A stretch of DNA of 35,289 nucleotides from Candidatus Enterousia sp. (GCA_045634405.1 JAZRAD010000049.1:1-35289), one strand, 5' to 3'. Counted from the stretch's first letter, positions 1 to 32,332 are shown. The notes: generated by a model from the sequence alone, not told the origin. Made by a program: numbers and translations.

Positions 1-1
1 G

Positions 2-244
2 GCAAAAGACGACGTAATTGTTTTTACTGGCACAGTTGAGGACAAACTACCAAACACTATGTTTCGTGTAAGATTGGAAAACGGCCACGTAATCTTGGCG
101 ACTGTATCTGGGAAAATGCGTAAAAATCGCATTTGGATAAATGTTGGCGAAACTGTTCGCGTTGAAATGACACCATACGACCTGGACAAGGGACGTATAA
201 CATTTGTTGAACGCAACAAACCGACAACAGAAAATGCCCAATAA
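2..244 (+). CDS. infA: translation initiation factor IF-1 (5' end cut by window edge)
   Basis: Translation [72 protein letters not shown] matches the IF-1 S1-fold consensus (LPNxxFRVxLENGH, SGKMRKNxI, [13 protein letters not shown]). Stop at 242-244, followed by a hairpin terminator. Confidence 0.95.
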
Positions 245-2690: not shown

Positions 2691-2706
2691 AAACAAAGGA
2701 AAAAAC

Positions 2707-3443: not shown

Positions 3444-3872
3444 TTTAGTATTTTGTCTTAACTGTTTAACATAACCTACAATATCTTTATCAAATGAAAT
3501 ACGGCTGCGTTCAACCATCAATCTGTCTGCAAATCGTTGTGCTTGGCCGTTTTCTGCAATTTCTTTGACCGGTGTGCGCAACGCCAACATTGGTGTATTA
3601 TAATAGTGACTAAGATGCAAATTCGGATTCATACCATTTGCACGCAAAATATGTCTTGCCACATTTACATCTGATTTATTGGGAATAAAACAATATAAAT
3701 ATTCACGACCATTACGTGCACTTGTATAAAAAACATTACCAAACGATAAATACATCAACGCCTTGGCATCCTTATTCATATCACGATTTTCCAGTGCAAC
3801 AGCACTGCCAGAAAATAAATCTTTGACATAATCAATAACAACATATAAAACGTTTATTCTATTCTGCTTCAT
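3441..3872 (-). CDS. hypothetical protein (143 aa), no recognisable motif
   Basis: Clean ORF between the bidirectional terminator and an intergenic region with TTGACA-type promoter elements. No signal peptide and no family recognised. Confidence 0.6.
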   Translation of the reverse strand: MKQNRINVLYVVIDYVKDLFSGSAVALENRDMNKDAKALMYLSFGNVFYTSARNGREYLYCFIPNKSDVNVARHILRANGMNPNLHLSHYYNTPMLALRTPVKEIAENGQAQRFADRLMVERSRISFDKDIVGYVKQLRQNTK

Positions 3873-3950
3873 TATTTTACCTTATATAATATTATAGTTG
3901 GACTATTGTTTACTATAAAAGTTATTTTGTCAAGGACTCACACCCACAAA

Positions 3951-6900: not shown

Positions 6901-7568
6901 AATAAATAATTTTGCGTATAATCCCGAGACATCAATTCAAAATTCTTGCCATAATTCAAAGTACCGCTGGTCGTGCTGTATAAATCTAAATTCGCGGTAT
7001 AAAATTTATACTCATCATTTGCAGTCGGCATTGCAGGTCCATATGGCAATGTAAACGCGACTGTTCCACCAGATTGCGCGCCACCACCAGAACCATCGCC
7101 ACCAGGTCTGTTTCCTCCGCTAGACGGATTATCATTATTGTTACCTGGGTCAAACAAATCTGTCAGCAAGAACAAGCCACCTACGACAACGGCGGCCCCC
7201 GCCGCCGTTAAACTAATGCTTTGGGCAGACGACAGTCCGCTAAACAATCCACCAGACGACCGCGGTTTGGTTCGATTATTGTATTTCTTAATTTGTGTAT
7301 CGCATTTTGACGCATCAGCACCATACATTTGCAAAATTTGTGCAGCACGCACATCATTATTCATCAACGCAGTACAAACGATAGACAATCCCGTTGAATC
7401 TACAAAATTTACATTCGCACCTGCATTCACCAAACTTTGCACCTGTTGGATATCGGCATTTTTAGCTGCTGCCAACAATTGTGCCGCCACCGTAAAATCA
7501 TTACTTGCGCCAAAAGACGCGATTGGGATAAAAAACAACGAAAACATTAAAATTCTGATAAATTTCAT
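3951..7568 (-). CDS. large surface protein: signal peptide, 2 ankyrin repeats, hydrophobic segment, Gly-rich linker, large passenger, C-terminal beta-barrel (autotransporter-like)
   Basis: MKFIRILMFSLFFIPIASFGA signal. LLAAAKNADIQQVQSLVNAGANVNFVDSTGLSIVCTALMNNDVRAAQILQMYGADAS fits the ANK consensus twice. ISLTAAGAAVVVGGLFLL is the hydrophobic segment. GGNRPGGDGSGGGAQSGG is the linker. The last ~300 aa show alternating beta-strand patterns typical of OM barrels. Confidence 0.8.
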   Translation of the reverse strand: MKFIRILMFSLFFIPIASFGASNDFTVAAQLLAAAKNADIQQVQSLVNAGANVNFVDSTGLSIVCTALMNNDVRAAQILQMYGADASKCDTQIKKYNNRTKPRSSGGLFSGLSSAQSISLTAAGAAVVVGGLFLLTDLFDPGNNNDNPSSGGNRPGGDGSGGGAQSGGTVAFTLPYGPAMPTANDEYKFYTANLDLYSTTSGTLNYGKNFELMSRDYTQNYLLMMHGYSPLARGYMGMRTPRNSVLAPIETKNINWRGIQVMGGRPVNVALVTSNGVNADNFQYGVISESSLGDTLIPWTTVNKDAVNQADDTMISSKYYNNKIVLGIGEETLTNAVTVEDESILSSFDLAGWGTVVNNANASIVDNLLAKVVGGRDSGYKDADFMGFMPNGQMTIYRTGNGTGIVTPTEEITGTYTQTNGKITEIVLFGETLTVLQDGNTFVATDSGTENPKTYKGYIGTNGKLYIDSEADGVINQMYTMSDDGVLTLSGVAGSVDYMNYKALINAADLWSAGDISGGRSRPGVIANVSVVESLHAKDANTINDVLSGENKQTTFSNYVNDYYDVVEDAYFPGTDAYNFFGKLGSSFQPMVIFATGASETDSKYSGVVQSATFENAVPLVFDNAKYNFMSVVSVGLTKSGTSEATDVSGFAPTGKYMLSQWQVGQGENAKYYKSRACGDAGSGTSNVDPWCFAGAGMTDERAVSSVAGAVGAVQSAFAYLSNKQVFSLLALTADGPLLATDATGKAMSEESLVSYLQNMYILPTEYTYYISQGKMDYLDAFAEVFGYGLINLERATKPGTSVYFFDGDRIVSANGDAYWRAATNTAFRASGALNLRSATISAPFFDVLESTDGKLSVPRIWENEFAFGATDSRGLYMGDVLGELKTVRDNSQTVKIGSIDFSMATSERAYDDYMGGLDNLTLKYNSGNWNFGASYQRYLTDGVSRFSGLQNPIMGLASNAVVSDAEYNYGRFAFGGRVFSGAITDEGLLETDPTISSQYMPAKLGLMQGADSYVAFNGDRLSVKALIGMANESDTLLGAYSDGLLDLGAGDTIYTDIETRYDFSDKIGVIARATFARTTSDASGNFILGLTDIDSNAFALGANIGNFEFSVSQPLAITDGSLKYAYAKYDVDDNSQLNIVDTHVADLSLQADVRETRFMGTYRHKFGEFTDGAFGFIYRVNPNHTDKFGNESVFMLKMTHKLGI

Positions 7569-7627
7569 ACCTACACTCTTTAATATGAATTATATTTTAT
7601 CATAAGAGTGTTTTATATGTCTAGTAT

Positions 7628-7663
7628 AAAAAACAAAAAAATCAGGTCACATTTCTGTGACCC
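7628..7663 (-). terminator. rho-independent terminator of the PK-repeat gene
   Basis: Minus-sense hairpin ggtcaca-gaaa-tgtgacc followed by tttttttgtttttt. Confidence 0.75.
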
Positions 7664-7692
7664 GATTGTGCATTTGCACAAACACATCTGAA

Positions 7693-8241
7693 TTATCTTT
7701 GGTTACAACCACCAATACTGCACGCATAGCCCCATGCAATAGTTGGTTTCTTAACTACTTTTGCAGTATCCTGTGGCACAACATTACGCACAGTATCGTT
7801 AACAACAACATTGTTACGCACAGTGTCGTTTACAACAACATTGTTACGCACAGTATCGTTAACAACAACCGGTTTTGGCTGTGGTTTTGGTTTTGGTTTT
7901 GGTTTTGGTTTTGGTTTTGGTTTTGGTTTTGGTTCTACGATAACATATACAGTATCATTACAACCGCAATCATCTTTAACAGATGGTACCTTGACATCAT
8001 TATTATTTTCAATTTTAACGCTGTCATCAACAATAATTACACTGTTATTATCAATTTCAACACCACCATCAACAATAACTTTGTTATTATTCACAATTTC
8101 AATTTTTTGTTTTTTTACAGGTTCCTTGCATTTTTTGCCACAAGAATCACCCGAACACTGTTTCATACCAAACAATGTCGTCAAAACAATCAATGAACCC
8201 GTACCCAATGTCAACATAACATCTCTTACTTTATTAGACAT
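7693..8241 (-). CDS. membrane-anchored repeat protein with a (PK)n rod and two other tandem repeat blocks
   Basis: AAGGA SD 7 nt before the ATG at 8241. N-terminal anchor LTLGTGSLIVLTTLFGM. VxVDxxVxIxNN repeated 3 times. EPKPKPKPKPKPKPKPKPKPQPKP. VVVNDTVRNN repeated 3 times. Has its own promoter and terminator. Confidence 0.8.
   Translation of the reverse strand: MSNKVRDVMLTLGTGSLIVLTTLFGMKQCSGDSCGKKCKEPVKKQKIEIVNNNKVIVDGGVEIDNNSVIIVDDSVKIENNNDVKVPSVKDDCGCNDTVYVIVEPKPKPKPKPKPKPKPKPQPKPVVVNDTVRNNVVVNDTVRNNVVVNDTVRNVVPQDTAKVVKKPTIAWGYACSIGGCNQR
7781..7869. repeat. 30-nt tandem repeat, about 3 copies, in frame (10 aa per unit)
   Basis: attgttacgcacagt(a/g)tcgtt(a/t)acaacaac is repeated head to tail. 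It encodes VVVNDTVRNN on the minus strand. Confidence 0.9.
7871..7936. repeat. hexanucleotide microsatellite (GGTTTT)n, 8 perfect plus 3 imperfect units
   Basis: Perfect ggtttt units from 7883 to 7930, with degenerate units on both sides. Encodes (PK)n on the minus strand. Confidence 0.95.
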
Positions 8242-8284
8242 ATTTAAATCCTTTTGTTTAATTGTTTTTTATCTTACACATAAT

Positions 8285-8313
8285 ATTATAGACAAACATT
8301 GCTGTTTTGTCAA
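8285..8313 (-). promoter_or_regulatory. sigma70-like promoter for the PK-repeat gene
   Basis: Minus-sense TTGACA (8313-8308), 17-nt spacer, TATAAT (8290-8285). Confidence 0.6.
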
Positions 8314-8339
8314 GACTTAAACATAAAATTATTTTTTCT

Positions 8340-8369
8340 TTGCACCACCCTGCCATATTATGATATAAT
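8340..8369 (+). promoter_or_regulatory. sigma70-like promoter for the 8387 gene
   Basis: TTGCAC (8340-8345), 18-nt spacer, TATAAT (8364-8369). Divergent from the promoter above. Confidence 0.55.
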
Positions 8370-8386
8370 CCATCATCAGAGAGAAT

Positions 8387-9247
8387 ATGAAACAGCGCAT
8401 TTTATCTTCATTGTTATTTATTACATTGTGTTCTGGGGCCTTTGCTGCAACACAACAGTGTTCACGCGCCAATTTAACACGTTGTTTAGATTCAGTATGC
8501 GCAATAAACATGTCATCAAATCCGGCTGCACGTTGCCAATACTGTGGCTCAGACAGTGCTGGCACCCCACCAAACACCAAGATGAAATCAGTATCCGTCG
8601 GTGCATCTGCAAAATATAATATTTCTGAAAAAGACCTTAAAAAGGCACCAACTGCACCTGGGGAACGCTATGCATGGGCAACAAAACAATGCATTGCCAA
8701 GGTTCCGGGTTGTACGCCTGATGATGTAACAGACACATATGATAAATTGATTGAACAATCTTGTACTGCGGCTGGCGTTTCTGCCCAGATGGCCAAATTA
8801 CAGGCTGACTTAAAAAAGACTCGAACAAAATCAGATTGCGAATCGGAAATTTCTGCATGCGTTATTGATGCATCTGGCTGTACTGCTGATTATCGCGCTT
8901 GTAAAGAAAACGCCAGTTTTGACCGCGTCTTTGCATCGTGCAGCGCGCTGTCCACAGGTTGCGACAATTTCACATCTGAAATCCGCACCGCATTACTGAA
9001 CGAACGCGACAATGCCGTTGAAAATGCAGATTTAATCTTGGCCAAGATTGTCGGCGCATATCAAGCAATGCGTGACGCAACACTGGCAGACACAAAAAAT
9101 GGTTGCAAAGACAATCGCAGATACGACGAATGTGTTGAAATGGTCTGCAACAGAAATATGCCAGACAAATGCGCCGCCGAAGACGAACAAGTATCCGCAG
9201 GTCTGTTATGCCAATTCCACAAGACAGCATGTAACACATTGGACTAA
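8387..9247 (+). CDS. secreted cysteine-rich protein (Cys-module family, member 2)
   Basis: Signal peptide MKQRILSSLLFITLCSGAFA. CSRANLTRCLDSVCA...RCQYCGS parallels the member 1 module. Further CESEISACVIDASGCTADYRAC and CKDNRRYDECVEMVCNRNMPDKC. Confidence 0.8.
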   Translation: MKQRILSSLLFITLCSGAFAATQQCSRANLTRCLDSVCAINMSSNPAARCQYCGSDSAGTPPNTKMKSVSVGASAKYNISEKDLKKAPTAPGERYAWATKQCIAKVPGCTPDDVTDTYDKLIEQSCTAAGVSAQMAKLQADLKKTRTKSDCESEISACVIDASGCTADYRACKENASFDRVFASCSALSTGCDNFTSEIRTALLNERDNAVENADLILAKIVGAYQAMRDATLADTKNGCKDNRRYDECVEMVCNRNMPDKCAAEDEQVSAGLLCQFHKTACNTLD

Positions 9248-9258
9248 ACAGGAAATAA

Positions 9259-10602
9259 ATGACAACAAACAAGAAACTTTATTTACATAAAATTCTGACA
9301 TCTGTTATCGGATGTATGTTTGTTATATATTCTGCAAATGCGACCAGTGTATCATCACGTGGTGGTCAACGCGCAACACAGGCGGCCGCACGTGCAAACA
9401 CACAAAAGGTATCAACAACAAAAACAGTTGAAAAAAAATCAACAACAAAAACTGTCGCCAAAACAGACATCGAACAAGAACTGGAAGAAAAGTTAGTAAT
9501 TGAAAACAAATCATCACAATTTGACGACTTTTTAATCGAAGTAGCAGAAACACAAAACGCAGACAGCGACCAAGATTTGGCCGAGAAAATCAGAAAACAG
9601 CGCGAGGCTTTTAACGCCCAATCCGCCAAGGATGTCGCCATCACAAAAACAAAAACCGCATTATCAACTGGCAAGAATGATTGCGACCAAAAATTGCGTG
9701 CTTGTATGAAAACAAAATGTGGCGAAGACTTTACAAAATGCGCCGGCGACACAGACACAATATGGGGCGACAAATTGGATTTATGCCGCCAAGGCATCAC
9801 TTGTACTGGTACTGAATACAACCTGTTTACCCAAGAAATAAAGGCCGACCGTGATTTAAATCAACAGCTGGCAGGCTACAAATCAATTGTCGATTGCGGC
9901 AACAGATATAACGATTGTATTATCACCCAATGCGGAACAACATTTTCAAATTGCTTGGGCAAATCTGCAGGCGACGCAGCGATAAAAAAATGTGAAAAAA
10001 TCGCAAACGAATGCAAACAACAGGACAGCGGTATGTCTGCCCGTGTTGCCGAAGTGATGGGCAACCTGCGTGTAAATGCCGAAGAACTGATCGCACGCGA
10101 CGAACAACGTCTGTACGACCTGCGCGATCAAATGCGTGCAACGTGTCAGCGTCTGGGCGCATTATTTGACGACCGCACATTAGACTGCGTATATTCCATT
10201 GAATTCCACGGTGGTGAAAGTGGCGATTTGATGGCTTCAAAAAAAGCATACGCCGGAACCAGTTTCAATTGCGACGCAGACTGGTTTGGCGTTGACGTAA
10301 CCACATTTATGGAAAATGCAGCCCGCCTGACAAAATCAACCAAATCTGCAACATCTGCGGCATTAGGTGCCGGCGTCGGTGTTGGTGTTGGCGCATTAAC
10401 ATCTGGCGCAATCGGTCGCGCAATGGACACAGCTAAGGCCAAGAAAGAACTGGACGAAGCAGAAAACGGCACCAAAGAAGAACAAAAAGCTGCAAAACAA
10501 CAAGAAAAACAAGATAAAAAAGATCAAAAACAAGCAGAACGAGACCAGAGAAAGGCAAATAGAGTCGCAGCAAAAAAATTAAAAGAAGGGAACAATACCT
10601 AG
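9259..10602 (+). CDS. secreted cysteine-rich protein (Cys-module family, member 3) with a C-terminal Gly-zipper segment and a K/E/Q-rich tail
   Basis: AGGAA SD before the ATG. N-terminal hydrophobic signal, then an S/T/R/K-rich region. Two tandem C-x6-C-x4-C-x6-C modules (CDQKLRACMKTKCGEDFTKC and CGNRYNDCIITQCGTTFSNC). AALGAGVGVGVGALTSGAIG followed by a lysine/glutamate tail. Confidence 0.8.
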   Translation: MTTNKKLYLHKILTSVIGCMFVIYSANATSVSSRGGQRATQAAARANTQKVSTTKTVEKKSTTKTVAKTDIEQELEEKLVIENKSSQFDDFLIEVAETQNADSDQDLAEKIRKQREAFNAQSAKDVAITKTKTALSTGKNDCDQKLRACMKTKCGEDFTKCAGDTDTIWGDKLDLCRQGITCTGTEYNLFTQEIKADRDLNQQLAGYKSIVDCGNRYNDCIITQCGTTFSNCLGKSAGDAAIKKCEKIANECKQQDSGMSARVAEVMGNLRVNAEELIARDEQRLYDLRDQMRATCQRLGALFDDRTLDCVYSIEFHGGESGDLMASKKAYAGTSFNCDADWFGVDVTTFMENAARLTKSTKSATSAALGAGVGVGVGALTSGAIGRAMDTAKAKKELDEAENGTKEEQKAAKQQEKQDKKDQKQAERDQRKANRVAAKKLKEGNNT

Positions 10603-10689
10603 GAAGGATGGCAAATAATACCGCTAAAAACAACGAGTTAAACAACACAACAACCACAAAAAAATAACACAACAAAATAATTATTCGGT

Positions 10690-10825
10690 CATTTCCCCCA
10701 TTCCTGCGCAGGCGGGAATCCACTGCGTCGCAGACAGTTATTCTTTTACCCCTGCATTACAAACCCACCTCGTAACTGCGTGACACCACTCCCGCACCCA
10801 ACCCCAACACAAGTCAGGGAATTAT
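10690..10825. repeat. C-rich and relatively GC-rich intergenic element with a REP-like palindrome
   Basis: attcctgcgcaggcgggaat (10700-10719) forms an 8-bp stem (one G-U pair) with a gcag loop. ctgcgtcgcag (10723-10733) is a second palindrome. A C-rich tract cccacctcg...cccgcacccaaccccaacac follows. Composition stands out by eye from the AT-rich surroundings. Confidence 0.5.
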
Positions 10826-10842
10826 TTTGATTTTTTTTATCA

Positions 10843-10871
10843 TTGCGGGGAATTGCAAAAAATGGTATAAT
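10843..10871 (+). promoter_or_regulatory. extended -10 promoter for the 10903 gene
   Basis: TTGCGG (10843-10848), 17-nt spacer with TG at 10863-10864, TATAAT (10866-10871). Confidence 0.5.
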
Positions 10872-10902
10872 ACACTCCATAGACAGGGAGAGAATTTTAT
10901 CC

Positions 10903-11565
10903 ATGAAACGCATTGCATCTATCTTTATCGCATTATCATTATGCACCCTGCCCTGTTTTGCAGAAACTTCATCAATTCCTAGCGCAGAAATTAATCCCAC
11001 TCTGGCAAATCAAAACGAACAATTAAAAGGCAAAGTTGCAACACTTAAAGTAAAAGAAATAGAAAAACCTGAAATAAAAAATATAATAAAACCAATACTT
11101 AACTCCAAGGATTTGTTAAGTGCATTCTGCACAAAGACACAAGGCAAAAAAACAGAATTAGGCACGGTAAAGTGTAAAAAAAACGCTATCACCATTACAT
11201 GTAATGAAAATAAAACAGAAAATAAAACAACATTTTCAAACAACAAATACGACTTTTCAATAATCTGTCCTGATGGCGACAACAAAACATCATACAGCAT
11301 AGAAGTAGTTTTAGCCAAAAAAGCCCAAAAAAAAGCCGATGAAGCTTCACAAAAAACAAATTGCAAAAAAGATGGCCATGGCGAATGGAACGACACACTA
11401 AATAAATGCAACTGCAACAGCGGATATGTGTTGGACGAATCGCCTGGAACCTGCGTCAAAGAAACAACAGCATTCAAAAATGCAAAAGAAAAACTGACTG
11501 CGCTTAAATCAACGCTAGATGATGTCGTGAAAGAAATAGAGAAAAAACAACCACAAGAACAATGA
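10903..11565 (+). CDS. secreted Lys-rich protein with a C-terminal CxCNS cysteine module
   Basis: The ATG at 10903 gives the signal peptide MKRIASIFIALSLCTLPCFA; the upstream extension in the ORF track has none. C-terminal CKKDGHGEWNDTLNKCNCNSGYVLDESPGTCV. ATGA stop/start overlap with the next gene. Confidence 0.75.
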   Translation: MKRIASIFIALSLCTLPCFAETSSIPSAEINPTLANQNEQLKGKVATLKVKEIEKPEIKNIIKPILNSKDLLSAFCTKTQGKKTELGTVKCKKNAITITCNENKTENKTTFSNNKYDFSIICPDGDNKTSYSIEVVLAKKAQKKADEASQKTNCKKDGHGEWNDTLNKCNCNSGYVLDESPGTCVKETTAFKNAKEKLTALKSTLDDVVKEIEKKQPQEQ

Positions 11566-12785
11566 AAAAACTTGCATTAACATCTTTACTAATTGTTTTA
11601 TCACTGCCCGCGTTTGCAGACACTGAAAATTATACATCAAAATTTACTGATGTAGAAACAATACAAGACGCATATGCAACATACAGGGCAAACGCCGATG
11701 CAATTATAAAAGAAGCAAAAAAATTTAAAGCAACAAATTCAGAAATAAAAAATCTGGAAAAGATTCGTGACACTGTTTTGGCAGATAACCCAACAACAAA
11801 ACCAAAAGAACGAACCAAAACAGAACTAACTCCCGAAGAACAAGCAGAAAAAGAAGCAAAAGTCGCAGCTGCCCAGGAAAAATATGACGCCGCCAAGGCC
11901 GAAGAACAATCTGCAGAAAACAAACTGTTGGGCGCAACAACAATGATGGCAACAGGTATGGGCGCAATGGAACTGGCATCCAGTATGTCTGAACAAAAAG
12001 CAGACCAAGAAGCCGAAGATGAAATGCGCGCTTACCTTTCTACATTCTATTGCAAATACGGCAGTAAACGTGTCCCAGGTGGCACCAAAAACGCAGAAAT
12101 TGGTGGTGGTAACGAACTTATCAACCTGTACGCACAATATGTCAATCTGGCAAATGATTTAAAAGCACGCAAAACTGCACTGGGCATCGCCCCAGGTATC
12201 GAATCCGAAGCAATTTTAGACAACGCAACCGCCGGCCTGCACGACGATGAAAATATTGGCAAACGTGGCGGTATGTTCACATCACTTGCACGTGCATTAC
12301 AAGACCCAACCGGCGAAGACGCAAAGAAATGGAAAGCGCAACAAGAAGAATCTGCCAAGGGTATCAAAGACGGTGCAACTGCACTGGGGGTTGGCGCAAT
12401 TGGTTCGGCGGTTATTGACCTGGCAATGAATCACACCGGCGACAAAGACGAAGACAAAGAAGATGAAGAAGAAAAAGAATTAACAGATACCGAAAAATCA
12501 GAACTGTGCAACAAAGGTGAACTTGGCAATTGGGACGCCGATACAAAAACATGTACATGTAACAGTAATCATGCAATCTGGGGAACAAGTTTAGTATTTA
12601 ACAGCGAATTACATATATGCACAACTCTAACAGACCAAGATATCAAGAATCTGACCAAAAAAGAGAAAAAAGAACTGCAAACTTGCAACAAAAGCGCATC
12701 ACAATACGTATGGAATAAAACAACGAAAAAATGCGTAGACAAATCAAAAATTAAAGAAAAGAATAAATCTAAATTCGCGATATAA
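11562..12785 (+). CDS. secreted protein with coiled-coil, Gly-zipper segment, acidic linker and CxCNS cysteine modules
   Basis: Signal peptide MKKLALTSLLIVLSLPAFA. GATALGVGAIGSAVIDLAM followed by DKDEDKEDEEEKE. CNKGELGNWDADTKTCTCNSNH is paralogous to the module in the previous gene. Translationally coupled to it (ATGA). Confidence 0.8.
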   Translation: MKKLALTSLLIVLSLPAFADTENYTSKFTDVETIQDAYATYRANADAIIKEAKKFKATNSEIKNLEKIRDTVLADNPTTKPKERTKTELTPEEQAEKEAKVAAAQEKYDAAKAEEQSAENKLLGATTMMATGMGAMELASSMSEQKADQEAEDEMRAYLSTFYCKYGSKRVPGGTKNAEIGGGNELINLYAQYVNLANDLKARKTALGIAPGIESEAILDNATAGLHDDENIGKRGGMFTSLARALQDPTGEDAKKWKAQQEESAKGIKDGATALGVGAIGSAVIDLAMNHTGDKDEDKEDEEEKELTDTEKSELCNKGELGNWDADTKTCTCNSNHAIWGTSLVFNSELHICTTLTDQDIKNLTKKEKKELQTCNKSASQYVWNKTTKKCVDKSKIKEKNKSKFAI

Positions 12786-26288: not shown

Positions 26289-26397
26289 TTTCTCCTTATA
26301 CACTGCTTAAAAGTATATCACAAATAGTTCGAAAATGATAATTTTTTGTTGTTTTCTATTTTCCAACTTTCGAACTTTCTGTAAATATTACAATTCC

Positions 26398-26426
26398 AAC
26401 AAAAAACCGCTCTGAAACGAGCGGTT
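26398..26426 (-). terminator. rho-independent terminator of tRNA-Gln
   Basis: Stem aaccgctc / gagcggtt with a 6-nt loop. Minus sense is followed by ttttttgtt. Confidence 0.8.
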
Positions 26427-26434
26427 GTCTATCT

Positions 26435-26508
26435 TGGTTGGGGCAGCTGGATTCGAACCAACACTGACGGAGTCAGAGTCCGGAGTTCTACCGTTAAACT
26501 ATGCCCCA
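26435..26508 (-). tRNA. tRNA-Gln (anticodon CUG), CCA encoded
   Basis: Hand-folded cloverleaf: acceptor TGGGGCA/TGCCCCA, 3-bp D stem GTT/AAC, anticodon stem CGGA/TCCG, loop CTCTGAC (anticodon CTG), T arm GTTGG-TTCGAAT-CCAGC, discriminator A, CCA. Architecture mirrors E. coli tRNA-Gln. Confidence 0.95.
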
Positions 26509-26518
26509 AGCACGGCGG

Positions 26519-26547
26519 ATTATAAGGCTTTTTTATTTCCAATGCAA
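26519..26547 (-). promoter_or_regulatory. sigma70 promoter of tRNA-Gln (copy A)
   Basis: Minus-sense TTGCAT (26547-26542), 17-nt spacer, TATAAT (26524-26519). The -10 ends about 10 nt upstream of the tRNA 5' end. Confidence 0.7.
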
Positions 26548-26563
26548 GCAGAAAGTTAATCCC

Positions 26564-26584
26564 CATGTAAAAAATATGTAAAAA
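26564..26584 (+). repeat. ATGTAAAAAATATGTAAAA motif, copy 1
   Basis: catgtaaaaaatatgtaaaaa. Contains an internal direct dyad ATGTAAAA-N3-ATGTAAAA. Confidence 0.9.
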
Positions 26585-26757
26585 TTTTTGCAAAATGAAA
26601 GCACTTTTATACATATAAAATATGTATCTAATACACCCCTAAACAATAACCATCACCTTGATTTTACATTAAAAACACCATATTCCCGCCACTTTTAATT
26701 TTTCCAGACCATTGTTCCGCTAGTCCGCCGGTCTGGGAAATGCACAAAGAACAACAC

Positions 26758-26782
26758 TTCCTGTGTAAAACCGGGATTTTTT
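26758..26782 (+). repeat. left copy of the TTCCTGTGTAAAA...C(C/T)GGGATTTTTT repeat
   Basis: ttcctgtgtaaaaccgggatttttt. The two halves recur at 30620-30632 and 30748-30759. Confidence 0.85.
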
Positions 26783-26827
26783 CACCCCCTTTTGAACAAT
26801 ATTTGACCTTTTTTTCACTACGGCTCA

Positions 26828-26850
26828 CACATGTAAAAAATATGTAAAAT
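26828..26850 (+). repeat. ATGTAAAAAATATGTAAAA motif, copy 2
   Basis: cacatgtaaaaaatatgtaaaat, about 60 nt beyond the stop of the last operon gene. Confidence 0.9.
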
Positions 26851-26910
26851 GTTCATAAATAAAATAAAAATATAGTTCCAACACGACGGCATATTTTACC
26901 AAATCTGAAA

Positions 26911-28188
26911 CTAACTAGATTTTTTTACGTTTTTATTATTAGATTGTTGCCAACGTTCAAAAACAGTTTGAGCAGCAAAACTCTTTAAAAATTTTTCTGG
27001 GTTTTCACACATTTCTCTTTCTATCTCTCTTTCTGCCCCTTCTTTATATCTAGTAGCCAGAGATTTGTTGCCCATTTTTTCCTGTCCCATAAAAGTATGG
27101 TTTATTATTTTTCTGTCCTTTATCCAGTTCATATATTTTGCAATTTTTGCCAGATGACTAGCAGTAAATTTCATGTCTCCATATTTTGCAACAATAATGG
27201 GTTTTATTTTTGCTACCATATCCGTTGGTAAGATATTTTGTGGGGTAGCAACCATTACGACTTTATCTTTTTTGGCCAATTGTTCAGCAATAACAGGATC
27301 ACTTATGAAAATAGCTGTCTGTCTAAAATCTTCGTCCGCAATATTTTTATACGGAACTATGCGAACTTTCAGTTTAAAAAATGGACTCTCCTGAACAGAT
27401 GCAGGCAGTTTACCATAAAAATCCTTATGAAAATCATCTAGTTCTTGACTTATAATGGGTTTAGAAAAATCTTGAGAGAATTGTATTGCGGACGTTAGTA
27501 AAGTTTGTAAAGAAGAATCTAAGCCAAATTCAGTTTTTAGTATATGTTCATAACAATACAGCCAAGCTTGACAATGACCATATGTATAGTCGTCAATATT
27601 ATTTAATTGATGTTCTATTAAATCTCGTGCTTCCTTAAAATAAAGAATTAAAGCAGCAAAGGCTTCTAAAAACCTTTTGTCATACTTTTTGGTTACATCT
27701 TGATCGCTACGAAAAATCTGAAAACACTTAGAATAGTCGAACAAGTATATTTTGTCTGCATTTTTTTCTGTATAATTCCAACCATTTTTTTCAAAAATCG
27801 CATGAAACAATGATGTAAAACCAATAGTCATTAAAACAATAAAACTTTCCGTCTTAAAGGTAGTTAAGGGATTGTTGTAATGTTGTACAGCAGACAATAT
27901 AGCATTTTTAGATTTTTCTAAAAGCTTTTCACATAGATAAGAGTTTTGTGATTTCAAACGAGTCTGAGAGAAAGATTTTTTAAATTGTTCTAACGATACT
28001 AAACTTCCAAAGTTATCTATTGGTTTATAATATTTGCCATTTCGACGAACAACATCACCTACTTTCCACAAACTTTTTTCCGTCGTTTTTACAGTCCACC
28101 CAGAGGCTTCTGATAACTGAGATAAGGTAAAGCTTGTGTGGCTTTTTATAAATTTATAAGCATTCTCAATTTTAGTAGTTTGTCCCAT
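26911..28188 (-). CDS. 425-aa protein: N-terminal wHTH-like region + DUF3644-like core, fourth gene of the R-M operon
   Basis: LLEKSKNAILSAVQHYNNPLTTFKTESFIVLMTIGFTSLFHAIF resembles, from memory, the DUF3644 signature (A..A.E.YNkP...fr.E.F.iL...aWE.LLKA). 9-nt gap from the upstream gene. No nuclease or NTPase motif recognised. Confidence 0.65.
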   Translation of the reverse strand: MGQTTKIENAYKFIKSHTSFTLSQLSEASGWTVKTTEKSLWKVGDVVRRNGKYYKPIDNFGSLVSLEQFKKSFSQTRLKSQNSYLCEKLLEKSKNAILSAVQHYNNPLTTFKTESFIVLMTIGFTSLFHAIFEKNGWNYTEKNADKIYLFDYSKCFQIFRSDQDVTKKYDKRFLEAFAALILYFKEARDLIEHQLNNIDDYTYGHCQAWLYCYEHILKTEFGLDSSLQTLLTSAIQFSQDFSKPIISQELDDFHKDFYGKLPASVQESPFFKLKVRIVPYKNIADEDFRQTAIFISDPVIAEQLAKKDKVVMVATPQNILPTDMVAKIKPIIVAKYGDMKFTASHLAKIAKYMNWIKDRKIINHTFMGQEKMGNKSLATRYKEGAEREIEREMCENPEKFLKSFAAQTVFERWQQSNNKNVKKSS

Positions 28189-28197
28189 GATTTACTC

Positions 28198-28740
28198 TTA
28201 ATTACTTTTTGGTACCGGCAAGCCAAATTTCTGCAGTGGAATGTATTCAAAGTAATATGAACAACCTACAGATACGATATAATCCAGCACATCTTGATAA
28301 CAAGCCTGTTTGAACCAATCACTCAGCAGATAAATATATTCTATTTCCATATTCAATTGTGCCAACAGTTTTTTATATTGTTTCTTCTTAAAATCACATG
28401 TTTGCAATTTCTCGTCCACGGATCCAGCAACACGTTGAAATTTACATTCAATTACAAAAAATGTGTTGTTTATGACAACATAAATAGAATCGTCTGGTAG
28501 CAACTTTTTTGACAATATAGATTTCCAATCTATGCCACGATATTCTAAAAACTTATACAATGCATTTTTCTTGAAAATTGATGCAACTTCTTCGCCTTTG
28601 TACAAGACAGAAACCCAGCCACGTTTGTCATCAGCACAATCATACCCTGGTTGATTGCACAGGAATGTACGCAGATCTGTCTTGCCCTCAAAAACTAATC
28701 CTGTTTTAGTGTTTGCACCACCAATACCATTTGCTTTCAT
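28198..28740 (-). CDS. small PD-(D/E)XK-type nuclease candidate (putative restriction endonuclease)
   Basis: LLPDDSIYVVINNTFFVIECKFQ gives D-x14-E-x-K in the beta-strand context typical of PD-(D/E)XK. 3-nt gap after the MTase gene. The 180 aa do not resemble R.DpnII as I recall it. Confidence 0.6.
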   Translation of the reverse strand: MKANGIGGANTKTGLVFEGKTDLRTFLCNQPGYDCADDKRGWVSVLYKGEEVASIFKKNALYKFLEYRGIDWKSILSKKLLPDDSIYVVINNTFFVIECKFQRVAGSVDEKLQTCDFKKKQYKKLLAQLNMEIEYIYLLSDWFKQACYQDVLDYIVSVGCSYYFEYIPLQKFGLPVPKSN

Positions 28741-28743
28741 TTT

Positions 28744-29523
28744 TTAATCCTTCTTTTCAGATGCATCATATAATCTTTTTTCAGCCAATTCAACAAATTG
28801 TGATTCCATGTCTATGCCGACAAAGCGGCGACCATGTTTCAGTGCGGCGACACCGGTTGTACCACTGCCCATAAACGGGTCCAGAATCAAATCACCAGGA
28901 TTAGTTGATGCCAAGACTATGCGCTCTAATAATTCCAATGGCTTTTGTGTTGGGTGTTTCCCGTGTATCTTTTCAGCCTTGGTCGGTGTGCCAATTGCCC
29001 AAACACTACGCATCTGACAGCCCGGCTTTTTAATAAAATCTTTTGGGAAATCACCGTTCTTCATCGCTTCATAGTTGAAAGTATGCTTAGATTTTTTGTT
29101 CTTTCTGGCCCACAGCAATGTTTCATGACTGGCTGTAAAATAGCGACAAGACATATTCGGGCTGGCATTTGGCTTAAACCAAGTAATGTCGTTCAAGATA
29201 TGAAAGCCCAACAACTGCATCGCATAGCCGCATGAATAAATGCTGTGATATGTACCACTGACCCACAATGTTCCATTTGGCTTTAATACACGATGACAGG
29301 CACACAGCCACTTTTTATGAAACTCAAAATCTTCACTAAGGCCATGCGATTTATCCCAATCGCCTTTGTTCACAGAAACAACACAACCATTCTGGCAGGT
29401 GATACCACCATTAGACAACATGTATGGAGGGTCCGCAAAAATCATGTCAAAAGTGTTTTCGGGGATTTCAGCTAACTTTTTCAGGCAATCTTCACAATAA
29501 AGTCGATACTGTTTCTTATTCAT
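28744..29523 (-). CDS. beta-class N6A/N4C DNA methyltransferase, DpnA (M2.DpnII)-like
   Basis: Motif IV first (DMIFADPPYMLSNGG), then VSVNKGDWDK, KHPTQKP and motif I DPFMGSGTTGVAA. The order and strings match the DpnA / M.MboII-type beta class. Confidence 0.9.
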   Translation of the reverse strand: MNKKQYRLYCEDCLKKLAEIPENTFDMIFADPPYMLSNGGITCQNGCVVSVNKGDWDKSHGLSEDFEFHKKWLCACHRVLKPNGTLWVSGTYHSIYSCGYAMQLLGFHILNDITWFKPNASPNMSCRYFTASHETLLWARKNKKSKHTFNYEAMKNGDFPKDFIKKPGCQMRSVWAIGTPTKAEKIHGKHPTQKPLELLERIVLASTNPGDLILDPFMGSGTTGVAALKHGRRFVGIDMESQFVELAEKRLYDASEKKD

Positions 29524-30499
29524 AATTTGTAATCAAAAGTTCCCGAATTGCATCACGACCGTCCGCCTTGGAGTTTATCAGTCGCTTGGCCATAATGCGA
29601 TTTATCTTATAATCTTGGTACAGGTCGTCAAAGAATGGGTCATCAACATAGTTCGTTGGGTCGGAATTACTTAACATCTGCAAAGCCCCCATTTGATGAC
29701 AGATATCAAAAACGTTCTTTAATCTGATTTGTTCATTGTCATCAAAGTCACCAACCGCATACGAATTAAATGACGAAGTTTCACGAATTGGGCGGTATGG
29801 AGGGTCGTAGTATATAAATGTGTCATCCGTCACATACTTTGATGTATCGCCAAAGTCGCCCTGAATAATGGTTGCAATCTGCAAAGCATCAGACACATTA
29901 CGCAGGTTTTCTTCATCCAATATGCGTGGGTTTGTATATTTGCCCATTGGAACATTGAACTTGTTCTTGCTGTTCACACGGAACAGGCCATTAAAGCAAG
30001 TCCGATTCAAGAATATCGTCAAAGCCGCACGGCGAACAAAACCGGTACGATAGACATTTGCATCGATATCTTTGTCGAATTCATTATATTCATCACGACG
30101 TGCGTAATAGTATTCTTTTTGATTCTCGGTCAACCGATATTCAGTCTGCAATTTGGTCAGTTCGACAATCAATTCTTCAACATTATGCTTGATAACATTG
30201 TACAGAATAACCAATTCAGGATTGATATCGAACAAATATGCTTCTTGGATTGGGTATTTATTATAGATATCAAAGAATACGGCACCGCCACCAACAAACG
30301 GTTCAACATAGCGTTTGACGCCACCCATTTTCAGTTTTAATGGCAATTTAGGTTCGATTTGATCCAATAACTGACCCTTGCCACCAGCCCATTTCAAGAC
30401 AGGTTTGCAATCAACATAATCCGGCAATCTGGCAGGTATTGCAATCACGTATTCCTTTCCTTTAACTTGATAATAGAAAATATTACCAGATTGATCCAC
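29516..30499 (-). CDS. Dam-family (alpha-class, D12) N6-adenine DNA methyltransferase, DpnM-like
   Basis: LKWAGGKGQLL, EPFVGGGAVFF (motif I), FNGLFRVNSKNKFNVP, YYDPPY (motif IV). 8-nt overlap with the next gene. The start is non-ATG (GTG at 30499; alternative GTG 17 codons downstream after a GGAAAGGAA SD). Confidence 0.9.
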   Translation of the reverse strand: MDQSGNIFYYQVKGKEYVIAIPARLPDYVDCKPVLKWAGGKGQLLDQIEPKLPLKLKMGGVKRYVEPFVGGGAVFFDIYNKYPIQEAYLFDINPELVILYNVIKHNVEELIVELTKLQTEYRLTENQKEYYYARRDEYNEFDKDIDANVYRTGFVRRAALTIFLNRTCFNGLFRVNSKNKFNVPMGKYTNPRILDEENLRNVSDALQIATIIQGDFGDTSKYVTDDTFIYYDPPYRPIRETSSFNSYAVGDFDDNEQIRLKNVFDICHQMGALQMLSNSDPTNYVDDPFFDDLYQDYKINRIMAKRLINSKADGRDAIRELLITNYE

Positions 30500-30619
30500 A
30501 CAAATTATTTACTTTCTAGAAAAATCATACCTCTCATCATTAACATCCCTGATACTTCATAGTTCAAGAAAATAAAAACTATAAAGTATCAAGTAAAAAA
30601 CACCCTAAAATTACCAAAA

Positions 30620-30644
30620 TTCCTGTGTAAAAAATATGTAAAAC
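30620..30644 (+). repeat. right copy of TTCCTGTGTAAAA fused to ATGTAAAAAATATGTAAAA-like motif, copy 3
   Basis: ttcctgtgtaaaaaatatgtaaaac. Confidence 0.9.
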
Positions 30645-30744
30645 TGAAACTATATACGGACCAGCTTAAACCAGCCTGTATGCAGTGATATGCACAAATG
30701 TTAAACGGCCATTTTTGCCCGTGATTCAATCTGTATCATGCGAA

Positions 30745-30760
30745 AAACTGGGATTTTTTG
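30745..30760 (+). repeat. right copy of the AAAC(C/T)GGGATTTTTT half-repeat
   Basis: aaactgggattttttg versus aaaccgggattttttc at 26767-26782. Confidence 0.75.
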
Positions 30761-30775
30761 TTGTGTAGCATATGT

Positions 30776-30816
30776 GGAGTCAGAGTCCGGAGTTCTACCG
30801 TTAAACTATGCCCCAA
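30776..30816 (-). pseudogene. tRNA-Gln 5' fragment (positions 1-40, with 1 upstream nt)
   Basis: 41 nt identical to 26469-26509. Identity stops inside the 3' strand of the anticodon stem. There is no T arm or acceptor 3' strand. Confidence 0.9.
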
Positions 30817-30826
30817 TGCGTCGCAG

Positions 30827-30855
30827 ATTATAAGGCTTTTATTTTATCAATGCAA
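30827..30855 (-). promoter_or_regulatory. second copy of the tRNA-Gln promoter (copy B), now facing the R-M operon
   Basis: Minus-sense TTGCAT (30855-30850), 17-nt spacer, TATAAT (30832-30827). Same geometry as copy A. Confidence 0.65.
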
Positions 30856-30865
30856 GCACAAAGTT

Positions 30866-32332
30866 TTACATATCTTTTTGACAGTCGCATTTTGCCCATG
30901 ATTTGTATGATTGATATTCTATTTCTTTGAAACGAAATTCTGTAAAACCAATCAACTCTGCAATCAAACTCTCTTTTTCCGAATGCGTGAATTTGCGTGG
31001 CTTATGTTTTGCCCTAAATTCAGAACGCATGGCACGCAATTGCGCAACTTGATTCGCATTTGGCATCGAATGTGCCAATAATTTCTTATCAGTACGCACA
31101 ATACTGTTCTGACGCAGGTTTATATACGACATATCGCCCGGCCCTTCGGTGTAATTTTTGTATTTAAATCCAACAAGACCCATTTTTTCAAAGAACAATA
31201 TCATTCTTTGAAAGAACAGATTTTCATGCGTATAAACATCAAACAATGTTTCTTGTTTTAATTCTGCCTGCATTGCGTCCGATGATATGTTGCCTACAAT
31301 TGGTTCACACACCCAATCAAATTCCCACGGCACATCAATATCGGAATCCAATACACGCTGACGCGCAGATACGATTTGTTTTTCAAATTCTGCCTTGTCT
31401 TCAATATTCAAGACGCGATTAAAATCTGCGATTTTATCAGCACACATATACTGAAATAAAATGCCCATATAGTTTTGCACACTGTGGTCATTTAAATCTG
31501 GAATTTCTGCCCAGCGACCAGAAGATAAATTCACAGGTATAATTATCGGCTTGGTAATATCAATATTTGGGTCGCGTTTCCATTTGCCCTCGTTCAAATT
31601 CGCCTGTGCATTTATCAGTTTTCCGAAATGCGTCAGCGGACGAAAATAATCAAATTCATAATATGTTCCATGATATGCAACCAATGGATTACCATCTGCC
31701 CCCATCAATACAGGCGACAACCAATCTGGGATTTCCGGCATTGAAAAAGATTTCCCATCATGTTCTAACTTGAAAAAACCTGCATTTGGCATACCGGCAC
31801 GTGTCCAACGCGCAGGCGTCAATTTCTGAATTATAACCTTGGCCACACCAGTATGAGTTGCAATACCAATTGTTTTTGCATCTGTATTTTTCACAATTTT
31901 ATTCAACGTATCCAAGACACGTTTCACAAACTGTGTATGACTTTCGCCGTTTGGCGGCATATAGTCATCTTGGACAACCAAATCAAAGGGTATATATACA
32001 ACATCACCTTTTTGTTTGATTGGTGTATCTGCTGAATCTTCTGTCAAGCGGCAGATATTACCACAAAAATCCCCAAAATTATGTTCACGCAAACCATCAT
32101 CTGTTATAATTTCTGTATCATTATTTCCCACCACGACACGTGCAGTATCCAGCGCACGCGATGAAGACGACGAATAAACACAATCAAACTTAACATCATT
32201 TAATTTTTTCGCCAAAGCATGCGCCTGGGCAACCCCATTTTCATTTAATGGAATATCCAGCCAGCCCTGCATACGCTTTTCCACGTTATAGTTTGTTTCA
32301 CCATGCCTGAAAATATATAATGTCTTTTTCAT
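30866..32332 (-). CDS. histidine phosphatase (PGM/cofactor-dependent mutase superfamily) fused to a ~290-aa C-terminal domain of unknown function
   Basis: N-terminal LYIFRHGETNYN (RHG motif), SSSRALDTA, and a second His region ATHTGV. The C-terminal half (from about residue 195) has no motif I can name. Confidence 0.8.
   Translation of the reverse strand: MKKTLYIFRHGETNYNVEKRMQGWLDIPLNENGVAQAHALAKKLNDVKFDCVYSSSSSRALDTARVVVGNNDTEIITDDGLREHNFGDFCGNICRLTEDSADTPIKQKGDVVYIPFDLVVQDDYMPPNGESHTQFVKRVLDTLNKIVKNTDAKTIGIATHTGVAKVIIQKLTPARWTRAGMPNAGFFKLEHDGKSFSMPEIPDWLSPVLMGADGNPLVAYHGTYYEFDYFRPLTHFGKLINAQANLNEGKWKRDPNIDITKPIIIPVNLSSGRWAEIPDLNDHSVQNYMGILFQYMCADKIADFNRVLNIEDKAEFEKQIVSARQRVLDSDIDVPWEFDWVCEPIVGNISSDAMQAELKQETLFDVYTHENLFFQRMILFFEKMGLVGFKYKNYTEGPGDMSYINLRQNSIVRTDKKLLAHSMPNANQVAQLRAMRSEFRAKHKPRKFTHSEKESLIAELIGFTEFRFKEIEYQSYKSWAKCDCQKDM

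What the first reader, a model, noticed from the sequence alone, without database searches (positions are those of the whole stretch)
26435..30865. R-M islet with no integrase, between an intact tRNA-Gln and a duplicated promoter + 5' half of the same tRNA
Positions 26469-26557 and 30776-30865 are imperfect direct repeats. The first 41 nt are identical and cover tRNA positions 1-40. The next ~50 nt are similar but diverged, and they contain a complete TTGCAT-N17-TATAAT promoter in both copies. The 4.3 kb between the repeats holds a compact 4-gene R-M-type operon, with no integrase, transposase or recombinase. Classical tRNA-targeting islands duplicate the 3' part of the tRNA, supplied by attP. 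Here the promoter plus the 5' part is duplicated, and identity ends inside the anticodon stem, which is a classical integrase crossover region. Three explanations fit: (i) an element that restores the 5' end and promoter; (ii) an ancestral tandem tRNA-Gln pair whose upstream copy lost its 3' half to the insertion; (iii) cassette exchange by flanking homology, as known for the pneumococcal DpnI/DpnII cassettes.
Basis: partly seen in the sequence, partly recalled or inferred. Interest (0 to 1): 0.75.

Follow-up and report, generated by a model that had tools for sequence, protein, structure and literature searches.

The report
Integrase-less gene cassette splitting tRNA-Gln
A 4.3-kb mobile cassette carrying a restriction-modification system has inserted into the tRNA-Gln gene of a small-genome gut bacterium; it brings its own promoter and 5' half of the tRNA but no recombinase, and it belongs to a family of such cassettes with the same ends and different cargo.

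Summary
tRNA-Gln(CTG) lies at 26435-26508 (-). An exact 41-nt copy of tRNA positions -1..40 plus an ~80%-similar promoter lies 4307 bp upstream. Four genes sit between them: a Dam-type MTase, a DpnA-type MTase, a 180-aa PD-(D/E)XK nuclease and a DUF3644/PDC-S19 protein. None is a recombinase.

Related metagenome contigs (Candidatus Enterousia-like Alphaproteobacteria) settle most of the interpretation.
- The closest relatives have an empty site with a single tRNA-Gln, driven by the promoter that is the displaced copy in the window.
- The same cassette (~95% identical) sits at the same tRNA position in genomes whose flanks are only ~75% identical.
- At least four other cargos lie between the same ends. 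One end is a 165-nt left module that starts after tRNA position 37-40. The other is a TTTTACA-rich right module followed by a promoter and the tRNA 5' part.
- One contig holds two cassettes in tandem.

So this is a mobile, integrase-less cassette family that targets the anticodon-loop region with 5' polarity. The polarity itself is known but rare: about 4% of Islander islands. The recombinase was not found. Action in trans is inferred from the attP-like architecture. Spread by homologous recombination through the tRNA cannot be excluded.

The parts
26405..26426 (-). Intrinsic terminator of tRNA-Gln (native downstream flank).
   Evidence: An 8-bp stem followed by a T run. The flank resembles the sequence downstream of tRNA-Gln in relatives.
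26435..26508 (-). Functional tRNA-Gln(CTG). Inferred to be chimeric: positions 1 to about 37 from the cassette, the rest native.
   Evidence: ARAGORN and Rfam, 62.9 bits. The chimeric origin is inferred from the empty-site comparison and from the limits of identity.
26469..26509 (-). Exact 41-nt repeat, copy 1: tRNA positions -1..40 next to promoter A (attR-like).
26519..26547 (-). Promoter A, TTGCAT-N17-TATAAT, carried by the cassette. It now drives the tRNA.
   Evidence: Sequence. The same promoter type follows every cassette right end in L004, L014, L015, L017 and L019, and differs from the native promoters.
26509..26910 (-). Cassette right end (non-coding). It holds the TTTTACA heptamers: pairs at 26566-26583 and 26832-26849, and a single copy at 26764-26770. 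It is followed by promoter A.
   Evidence: Exact 18-mers. About 70-fold heptamer enrichment, Poisson 1.6e-11. The proximal ~75-130 nt are conserved in cassettes with other cargo.
26911..28188 (-). 425-aa DUF3644 protein; matches PADLOC defence candidate PDC-S19.
   Evidence: Pfam 2.6e-25; PADLOC 1.9e-29.
28198..28740 (-). 180-aa PD-(D/E)XK nuclease (P82-D83 ... E98-x-K100). It takes the place of the DpnII nuclease after the two methyltransferases.
   Evidence: PF20472. Invariant motif residues among 25 homologues. AF2 model at pLDDT 77, with weak matches to restriction enzymes and XisH. It follows M1-M2 in three unrelated contexts.
28744..29523 (-). M2: beta-class N6/N4 DNA methyltransferase (DpnA/CcrM-like).
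   Evidence: Pfam 6.6e-63. An identical protein lies next to canonical DpnII nucleases elsewhere.
29516..30499 (-). M1: Dam-family N6-adenine methyltransferase. The real start is probably the GTG at 30448, giving 310 aa.
   Evidence: TIGR00571, 2.7e-84. Relatives are called at 310 aa with the ribosome-binding site AGGAAAGGA. Module homology starts at 30487.
30614..30778 (-). Cassette left end: a 165-nt conserved non-coding module that starts after tRNA position 37. It contains the heptamer pair at 30626-30643.
   Evidence: More than 90% conserved across at least five cargo types, with an abrupt end of homology after CAGGAATTTTGG.
30776..30816 (-). Exact 41-nt repeat, copy 2: the displaced native 5' part of tRNA-Gln (attL-like remnant).
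30827..30855 (-). Promoter B, the native tRNA-Gln promoter. It now points into the cassette.
   Evidence: It matches the promoter of the empty site in L001. No terminator or other promoter is predicted between it and M1.
30866..32332 (-). It marks the chromosomal side of the insertion.
   Evidence: Pfam His_Phos_1. 93% identical in L001, directly next to the unsplit tRNA-Gln.

Best explanation
The 4307-bp interval (26510-30816, or equivalently 26469-30775) is one unit of a family of small, recombinase-less mobile cassettes. These cassettes insert into the anticodon-loop region of tRNA-Gln(CTG) in Enterousia-like gut Alphaproteobacteria.

Each unit has three parts:
- a conserved 165-nt left end;
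- variable cargo;
- a right end rich in TTTTACA heptamers, followed by a tRNA promoter and tRNA positions 1 to about 37.

Proposed mechanism:
- A circular form would join the right end, the tRNA 5' part and the left end into an attP-like site, with the heptamers on both arms.
- Recombination with the chromosomal tRNA at or just 5' of position 37 puts the cassette's promoter and 5' half in front of the native 3' half.
- The native promoter and 5' half are pushed upstream, where they point into the cargo. Here they probably transcribe the cargo.
- Repeated events stack cassettes in tandem.

What is shown: the insertion, the target position, horizontal spread, the modular ends and the tandem stacking.

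What is inferred: the circular intermediate, a site-specific recombinase (most likely a tyrosine integrase with an arm-binding domain) encoded elsewhere and acting in trans, and read-through expression of the cargo.

The cargo in this window is a DpnII-type pair of methyltransferases, an alternative small PD-(D/E)XK nuclease, and a separate candidate defence gene (PDC-S19).
For: - Empty sites. L001 and L047 are the closest relatives and each has a single tRNA-Gln. The L001 promoter matches the displaced copy B.
- Horizontal spread. The cassette is 94.6-97.7% identical in L004, L014 and L019, while chromosomal flanks are 74.6% identical in L019. Upstream and downstream neighbours differ in each genome.
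- Shared ends, different cargo. The same left end, abruptly bounded, lies next to at least five cargo types:
  - the R-M set;
  - a 421-aa gene plus an S8-like peptidase;
  - a 689-aa protein;
  - a 7-gene set;
  - an unknown cargo.
  The related right ends are shared too.
- Tandem stacking: L014 holds two cassettes in tandem.
- Position of the crossover.
  - tRNA positions 1-37 are identical in all remnant and intact copies, apart from one shared polymorphism at position 16.
  - Positions 38-42 vary: TCCAC, TCCAT, AGCCT and ACCAC, against native TCCGT.
  - The left end itself diverges by 5-8%.
  - So the element-borne positions 1-37 are under tRNA-type selection, and the crossover lies at or before the anticodon loop.
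- Heptamers. Seven sense TTTTACA copies lie in 678 nt of cassette ends, against five in the other 34.6 kb. The exact 18-mer occurs three times against 0.39 expected. Native tRNA-Gln promoters lack these repeats.
- Known target type. The anticodon loop is an established integrase sublocation, and 5'-fragment islands exist (PMC4383910; 10.1101/2020.11.02.365908).
Against: - No recombinase gene was found in the 35-kb window, nor within about 10 kb of the locus in roughly 20 related contigs.
- No integrase-bearing relative with the same ends was found.
  - IMG/VR.
  - Phage and plasmid collections.
  - JGI metagenomes gave two hits, both cassettes without an integrase.
- No read-level evidence of a circle exists. 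Contigs L004 and L017 stop exactly at tRNA position 40, which is only suggestive.
- The right-hand half-site of the putative core varies between copies.
- The heptamers could be regulatory sites rather than recombinase arm sites.
- The cargo-facing role of promoter B rests only on the absence of a predicted terminator.
Confidence: 0.6

Rival explanations
1. Homology-driven spread. The junction between the tRNA 5' half and the left end formed once. Cassettes now move between genomes by RecA-dependent recombination after DNA uptake. The invariant tRNA sequence serves as portable homology: the 37-41-nt remnant on one side and the 74-nt intact gene on the other. Alternatively, a looped-out circle could re-enter by a single crossover. 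No dedicated recombinase is needed.
For: - No recombinase was found anywhere near the locus.
- The tRNA is the only sequence identical among genomes whose flanks are about 75% identical.
- Left-end variants and cargos are re-assorted. The same R-M cargo occurs with the TCCAC, TCCAT and AGCCT junction types, which needs homologous exchange between cassettes.
- The M1-M2 genes have themselves been swapped between elements at gene borders.
Against: - Every independent insertion would need a crossover confined to about 40 nt.
- This model gives no reason for the 165-nt left end to stay conserved across unrelated cargo. That end includes a 57-nt block identical in eight copies and has a sharp common boundary.
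- It also gives no reason for the heptamer arrays on both sides.
- It does not explain how the first junction, at a canonical integrase sublocation, arose.
Confidence: 0.27
2. A dead relic. The islet is what remains of a classical integrase-bearing island after deletion of its integrase module. It is now fixed and immobile.
For: Integrase-bearing islands with the same M1-M2 genes exist in the same bacterial populations (L021-L024 and L072-L075). Some cassettes are visibly decayed: in L048 the remnant and most of the left end are gone.
Against: - Those islands use other sites (a tRNA-Thr 3' fragment), have other arm repeats (TTTGCTAC) and lack the cassette ends.
- At least five cargo types share the ends, and none of them has an integrase.
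- The cassette is about 95% identical across genomes with about 75% flank identity, and the nearest relatives have empty sites. Both point to recent movement.
Confidence: 0.08
3. An ancestral tandem pair of tRNA-Gln genes whose upstream copy lost its 3' half, or an assembly artefact.
For: The two promoter-plus-5'-half copies are in direct orientation.
Against: - Relatives have a single tRNA-Gln.
- The start of the left end resembles the tRNA 3' end no more than chance would give.
- The same junction is present in at least six independent assemblies.
Confidence: 0.02

Closest known systems
tRNA-gene genomic islands that displace a 5' tDNA fragment (Islander database; anticodon-centred attP)
   Same: An intact tDNA plus a displaced fragment in direct orientation. 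The element restores the disrupted part. Identity ends at the anticodon loop or stem. Tandem arrays occur.
   Different: Islander islands contain a tyrosine integrase by definition and are at least 2 kb, usually much larger. Here no unit has a recombinase, units are 1.5-5 kb, and the element must also supply a promoter.
CIMEs (cis-mobilizable elements of streptococcal ICESt1/ICESt3) and ccr-less pseudo-SCC elements at staphylococcal rlmH
   Same: att-flanked cargo units without recombination genes. They accumulate in tandem at one site and are thought to be moved in trans by a related element's recombinase. This comparison rests on general knowledge; ICEberg 2.0 (PMC6323972) was only listed by the CIME literature search and was not read.
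   Different: For those elements the helper element and its recombinase are known, and the target is the 3' end of a protein gene. Here no helper is known and the target is the 5' side of a tRNA.
Integron gene cassettes
   Same: Small cargo units without a recombinase, stacked at a fixed chromosomal platform. An upstream resident promoter faces into the array.
   Different: No intI, attI or attC is present. Each cassette carries about 300 nt or more of conserved ends and its own promoter. Cargo can be multi-gene and in either orientation.
DpnII / MboI / LlaDCHI-type GATC restriction-modification systems, and the pneumococcal DpnI/DpnII cassette exchange
   Same: A Dam-family methyltransferase followed by a second DpnA-like methyltransferase and a nuclease. 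The identical M2 protein lies next to genuine DpnII-family nucleases in sister elements. Alternative nucleases occupy the same slot.
   Different: The nuclease here is an unrelated 180-aa PD-(D/E)XK protein (PF20472). The GATC specificity is untested. The pneumococcal exchange is a simple allelic replacement between common flanks, with no split tRNA.

Membership tests
tRNA-integrating genomic island (tyrosine-integrase type) | An intact tDNA and a cognate tDNA fragment in direct orientation bracket the insert. | tested here: met
tRNA-integrating genomic island (tyrosine-integrase type) | An unoccupied site exists in relatives and the insertion boundary is precise. | tested here: met
   L001 and L047 are empty. 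The junction is the same in at least six assemblies.
tRNA-integrating genomic island (tyrosine-integrase type) | An integrase gene lies inside the island. | tested here: not met
   No Phage_integrase, Resolvase or transposase domain in any cassette gene or window ORF.
tRNA-integrating genomic island (tyrosine-integrase type) | An attP with a core at a tRNA sublocation, flanked by arm-type binding sites. | tested here: inconclusive
   Identity ends at the anticodon loop or stem, and TTTTACA arrays lie on both arms. No protein is known to bind them.
CIME-like cis-mobilizable element | Flanked by att-type repeats and lacking recombination and transfer genes. | tested here: met
CIME-like cis-mobilizable element | A cognate autonomous element exists with the same att sites and a recombinase. 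| tested here: not met
   Not found in the related loci or in the JGI, IMG/VR, phage and plasmid collections.
Integron | An intI gene with adjacent attI and Pc, and cassettes ending in attC. | tested here: not met
   No integrase lies next to the array in any locus. The cassette ends are not attC-like.
DpnII-type (GATC) type II R-M system | A Dam-family methyltransferase plus a second DpnA-like methyltransferase. | tested here: met
DpnII-type (GATC) type II R-M system | A DpnII-family endonuclease (PF04556). | tested here: not met
   The nuclease is PF20472 PD-(D/E)XK. Sister elements with the identical M2 protein do carry PF04556.
DpnII-type (GATC) type II R-M system | GATC recognition, m6A methylation and cleavage of unmethylated GATC. 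| not testable with these tools
   This needs methylome data or enzyme assays.

The most novel reading that the evidence does not exclude
tRNA-Gln in these reduced-genome gut symbionts acts as an integron-like gene-capture platform, run by an unlinked and still unidentified recombinase. Each incoming cassette supplies a fresh promoter and 5' half for the essential tRNA. Each displaced tRNA promoter becomes the expression signal for the cassette behind it. In this way small recombinase-free cassettes (defence, peptidase and metabolic genes) circulate across species with roughly 75% flank identity.
Probability: 0.3. Interest if true: 0.8.

Novelty: new variant of a known kind. Interest (0 to 1): 0.6.

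Why it matters
Island finders such as Islander require an integrase inside the island, so they are blind to units like these. Here a whole family of recombinase-free cassettes shares defined ends and a defined tRNA target, and it turns over quickly in bacteria with genomes under 1 Mb that are otherwise poor in mobile DNA.

If a trans-acting recombinase is confirmed, this would be a compact cassette-exchange system. Its attP-like site (about 300 nt) and attB (the tRNA-Gln anticodon region) are already delimited. It would also be an example of an element that must carry a promoter because it replaces the 5' side of its target.

The locus also shows restriction-modification genes being re-assorted one gene at a time: the same methyltransferase pair is combined with unrelated nucleases.

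Tried and rejected
- **Exact-protein look-ups.** The flanking phosphatase and M1 (327-aa form) are not on record.
- **IMG/VR scans.** The left-end core, the left-end start and the heptamer pair gave nothing or only chance matches to the pattern itself.
- **Phage and plasmid collections.** The left end has no match.
- **Known RNA families.** Nothing in either cassette end.
- **Structured RNA in the remnant plus left end.** The consensus fold has no compensatory pair in 52 predicted pairs.
- **Left end as a decayed tRNA 3' end plus downstream flank.** The alignment is not above shuffles.
- **Inner right end (26584-26831) as a decayed second left end.** Only the heptamer pair aligns, and the score is within the shuffle range.
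- **The 389-aa and 402-aa integrases found next to the same M1-M2 genes as the missing recombinase.**
  - The 389-aa islands sit at a tRNA-Thr 3' fragment, have different arm repeats and share no cassette ends.
  - No homologue of the 389-aa integrase was found near any tRNA-Gln locus fetched up to that point; the loci fetched later were not re-scanned for it.
  - The islands carrying the 402-aa integrase have no tRNA-Gln or cassette-end sequences either.
- **L004 (4331 nt = 4307 + 24) as a circular contig.** The 24-nt overlap fits graph branch points at tRNA positions 16 and 40 rather than an assembler k-mer overlap. It is ambiguous.
- **dif-like / XerCD (IMEX) target.** Comparison by eye with a Proteobacterial dif consensus recalled from memory found no convincing similarity.
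- **PDB sequence search for the nuclease and the DUF3644 protein.** Nothing significant.
- **Literature search for promoter-restoring tRNA elements.** Unproductive beyond the Islander and Klebsiella papers.


Full report
**Observation**

The window holds one tRNA gene, tRNA-Gln(CTG), at 26435-26508 on the minus strand.
- An exact 41-nt direct repeat links 26469-26509 to 30776-30816. It covers tRNA positions 1-40 plus one upstream base.
- About 50 nt at 80% identity follow. Both copies read TTGCAT-N17-TATAAT on the tRNA strand.
- Four co-directional minus-strand genes lie between the repeats:
  - a Dam-family methyltransferase (29516-30499);
  - a beta-class N6/N4 methyltransferase (28744-29523);
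  - a 180-aa PD-(D/E)XK protein (28198-28740);
  - a 425-aa DUF3644 protein (26911-28188), which matches PADLOC defence candidate PDC-S19.
- No recombinase domain was found in these genes or in the other window ORFs scanned.

**Host and empty site**

- The flanking histidine-phosphatase fusion gene recovered a 93%-identical locus in a Candidatus Enterousia MAG (L001).
- Enterousia belongs to the order Rs-D84 of the Alphaproteobacteria, whose members have genomes under about 1 Mb (PMC12306168).
- In L001 the phosphatase gene is followed directly by a promoter and one complete tRNA-Gln.
- That promoter aligns with the window's upstream copy B, not with copy A next to the intact tRNA.
- A second close relative, L047, is also unoccupied on this side.

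So the window differs from the ancestral state by a 4307-bp insertion that carries promoter A and the tRNA 5' part. The native promoter and 5' part are the displaced remnant.

**Mobility**

- Proteins identical to the nuclease, the DUF3644 protein and M2 occur on many metagenome contigs.
- The whole cassette recurs at 94.6-97.7% identity in L004, L014 and L019. The chromosomal genes next to it are only 74.6% identical between the window and L019.
- The neighbours on both sides differ between genomes.
- In every case the cassette lies at the same position in tRNA-Gln.

**A family with modular ends**

- L014 has a second cassette upstream of the R-M cassette. It has the same left-end sequence, different cargo (a 421-aa protein and an S8-like peptidase on the other strand), and its own right end, promoter and tRNA 5' part.
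- A scan of JGI metagenomes for the left-end core found two more loci with further cargos (L029 and L030).
- A survey through the neighbouring choloylglycine-hydrolase gene found the S8 cassette in many contigs and a seven-gene cassette in L052.
- Aligned, the left end is a 165-nt module that is more than 90% conserved.
  - It starts right after tRNA position 37.
  - It ends abruptly after ...TTTTACATATTTTTTACACAGGAATTTTGG in all cargo types.
  - It contains a 57-nt block identical in eight copies.
- The right ends fall into two subtypes. Both are rich in TTTTACA and share the promoter region.
- Native tRNA-Gln promoters lack these repeats: L001, L047, L057, and the remnants in L019 and L030.
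- In the window, seven of twelve sense-oriented heptamers lie in the 678 nt of cassette ends. The exact 18-mer occurs three times against 0.39 expected.

**Where the crossover lies**

- tRNA positions 1-37 are identical in all remnant and intact copies. The one exception is a C/T polymorphism at position 16, and the window has C in both copies.
- The next five bases differ between cassette lineages: TCCAC, TCCAT, AGCCT and ACCAC, against native TCCGT.
- The left end itself diverges by several percent. Perfect conservation of the element-borne positions 1-37 therefore implies that they regularly become part of the working tRNA.
- This places strand exchange at or just 5' of the anticodon loop.
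- The anticodon loop is one of the established integrase sublocations. Displaced 5' fragments are known but rare: 159 of 3919 Islander islands (PMC4383910). Islands integrated upstream of a tRNA gene have also been reported in Klebsiella (10.1101/2020.11.02.365908).

**Mechanism**

If the ends are joined in a circle, the order would be: heptamer-rich right arm, promoter, tRNA 1-37, left arm with a heptamer pair about 140 nt from the core. This is the layout of an attP with arm-type sites.

I therefore favour a site-specific recombinase acting in trans. That recombinase was not found:
- not in the window;
- not within about 10 kb of some twenty related loci;
- not with these ends in IMG/VR, phage or plasmid collections.

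The main rival is spread by homologous recombination, using the invariant tRNA as portable homology. It explains the missing recombinase and the visible re-assortment of left-end variants and cargo. It does not explain why the long ends are conserved.

No terminator or promoter is predicted between the displaced promoter B and M1. The R-M genes are therefore probably read from the displaced tRNA promoter. This is an inference.

**Cargo**

- The M1-M2 segment (28735-30487) is shared at 95-96% identity with unrelated islands. The breakpoints lie at gene borders.
- In those islands it is followed either by a genuine DpnII-family nuclease or by the 180-aa protein.
- The 180-aa protein belongs to a widespread, highly conserved family (6753 hits).
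  - It has an invariant P-D...E-x-K motif.
  - Its model has a nuclease-like fold, but matches to solved structures are weak.
- It is best read as an alternative nuclease partner of a GATC-type methyltransferase pair. Its specificity is untested.

**Verdict**

- The polarity is rare but known.
- What is new is the family: small recombinase-free cassettes with defined ends, stacked at the 5' side of one tRNA and moving between fairly distant genomes.
- The finding falls under 'new variant of a known kind', with moderate to high interest.
- The open question is the recombinase.

Noticed in passing
L001 3342-3526; L048 7599-7853; L055 592-1103 (two copies); L014 7087-7250; absent from the window: The 3' side of tRNA-Gln is also a hot spot in relatives. 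Non-coding mini-elements of 165-256 nt are bounded by direct repeats of the tRNA 3' end (CAGCTGCCCCAACCA). Most, though not the L014 copy, share a conserved right end (TTGTATATCGAGGCACC). Some copies are tandem and one has a gene inside (L057 845-2187).
   Followed up: partly
L065 1475-8473; L068 405-7403: A ~7-kb insert lies between the tRNA-Gln 3' end and the mini-element. It encodes a 501-aa large serine recombinase (Resolvase+Recombinase+Zn_ribbon) and an AAA_15/21 ATPase. The recombinase ORF runs antisense into the tRNA 3' end. Islander states that only tyrosine recombinases are known to target tDNAs.
   Followed up: partly
window 26320-26382; L052 5100-8700; L056 560-4600: Downstream of tRNA-Gln, relatives have single-gene units (MYG1 exonuclease, acetyltransferases, a radical-SAM protein, a 198-aa protein) in shuffled order and orientation between strains. 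Many of the units are led by the inverted repeat GTTCGAAAGTT-N27-CACTTTCGAAC; the others have a single arm. The window has one copy, in front of its 135-aa gene.
   Followed up: partly
window 28735-30487; L020-L025: The M1-M2 methyltransferase pair is a module shared at 95-96% identity by unrelated islands, with breakpoints at gene borders. It is combined with either a DpnII-family nuclease or the 180-aa PD-(D/E)XK nuclease.
   Followed up: yes
L021 5500-19240; L022 7900-13850; L023; L024: Islands with a 389-aa P4-type integrase (99.5% identical between contigs) lie next to a tRNA-Thr(TGT) 3' fragment. Their defence cargo varies between strains: McrBC, Hachiman-like HamA plus helicase, GmrSD, PLD, PIN, KAP NTPase and AAA_15/21. 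TTTGCTAC repeats lie next to the integrase gene. At the far side there is a separate repeat-rich region (TTTTACACGA x3 and others).
   Followed up: partly
window 30866-32332; L001 1750-3255; L014 7405-8217: The phosphatase fusion gene is 488 aa here and 501 aa in L001, where it runs through the tRNA promoter. A GAA-to-TAA change creates the earlier stop. Its C-terminal ~270 aa are homologous to stand-alone proteins of about 270-350 aa that are common in these bacteria. The 270-aa gene downstream of tRNA-Gln in L014 has the same length but was not compared.
   Followed up: partly
window 26493 and 30800 (tRNA position 16): Both tRNA 5' copies in the window have C at position 16, while every other locus has T. 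One copy should be native and the other cassette-derived, so this suggests gene conversion between the repeats or a cassette long resident in this lineage.
   Followed up: no
L004 (4331 nt) and L017 (3792 nt), contig ends: Two independent contigs of the R-M cassette stop exactly at tRNA position 40 after the right end, and L004 starts at position 17. This is as if the assembly graph branches there, which would fit a circle, a tandem copy or a strain mixture.
   Followed up: partly
window 282-12785: Nine consecutive large ORFs (143-1205 aa) have no Pfam match at E <= 0.001.
   Followed up: no
L082 (Neisseria gonorrhoeae NZ_CP119140.1 10933-11482): A 53%-identical homologue of the 180-aa nuclease lies in two tblastn pieces in a gonococcal 2.17-Mb record that is filed as a plasmid. 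It is unannotated there and may be a pseudogene.
   Followed up: no
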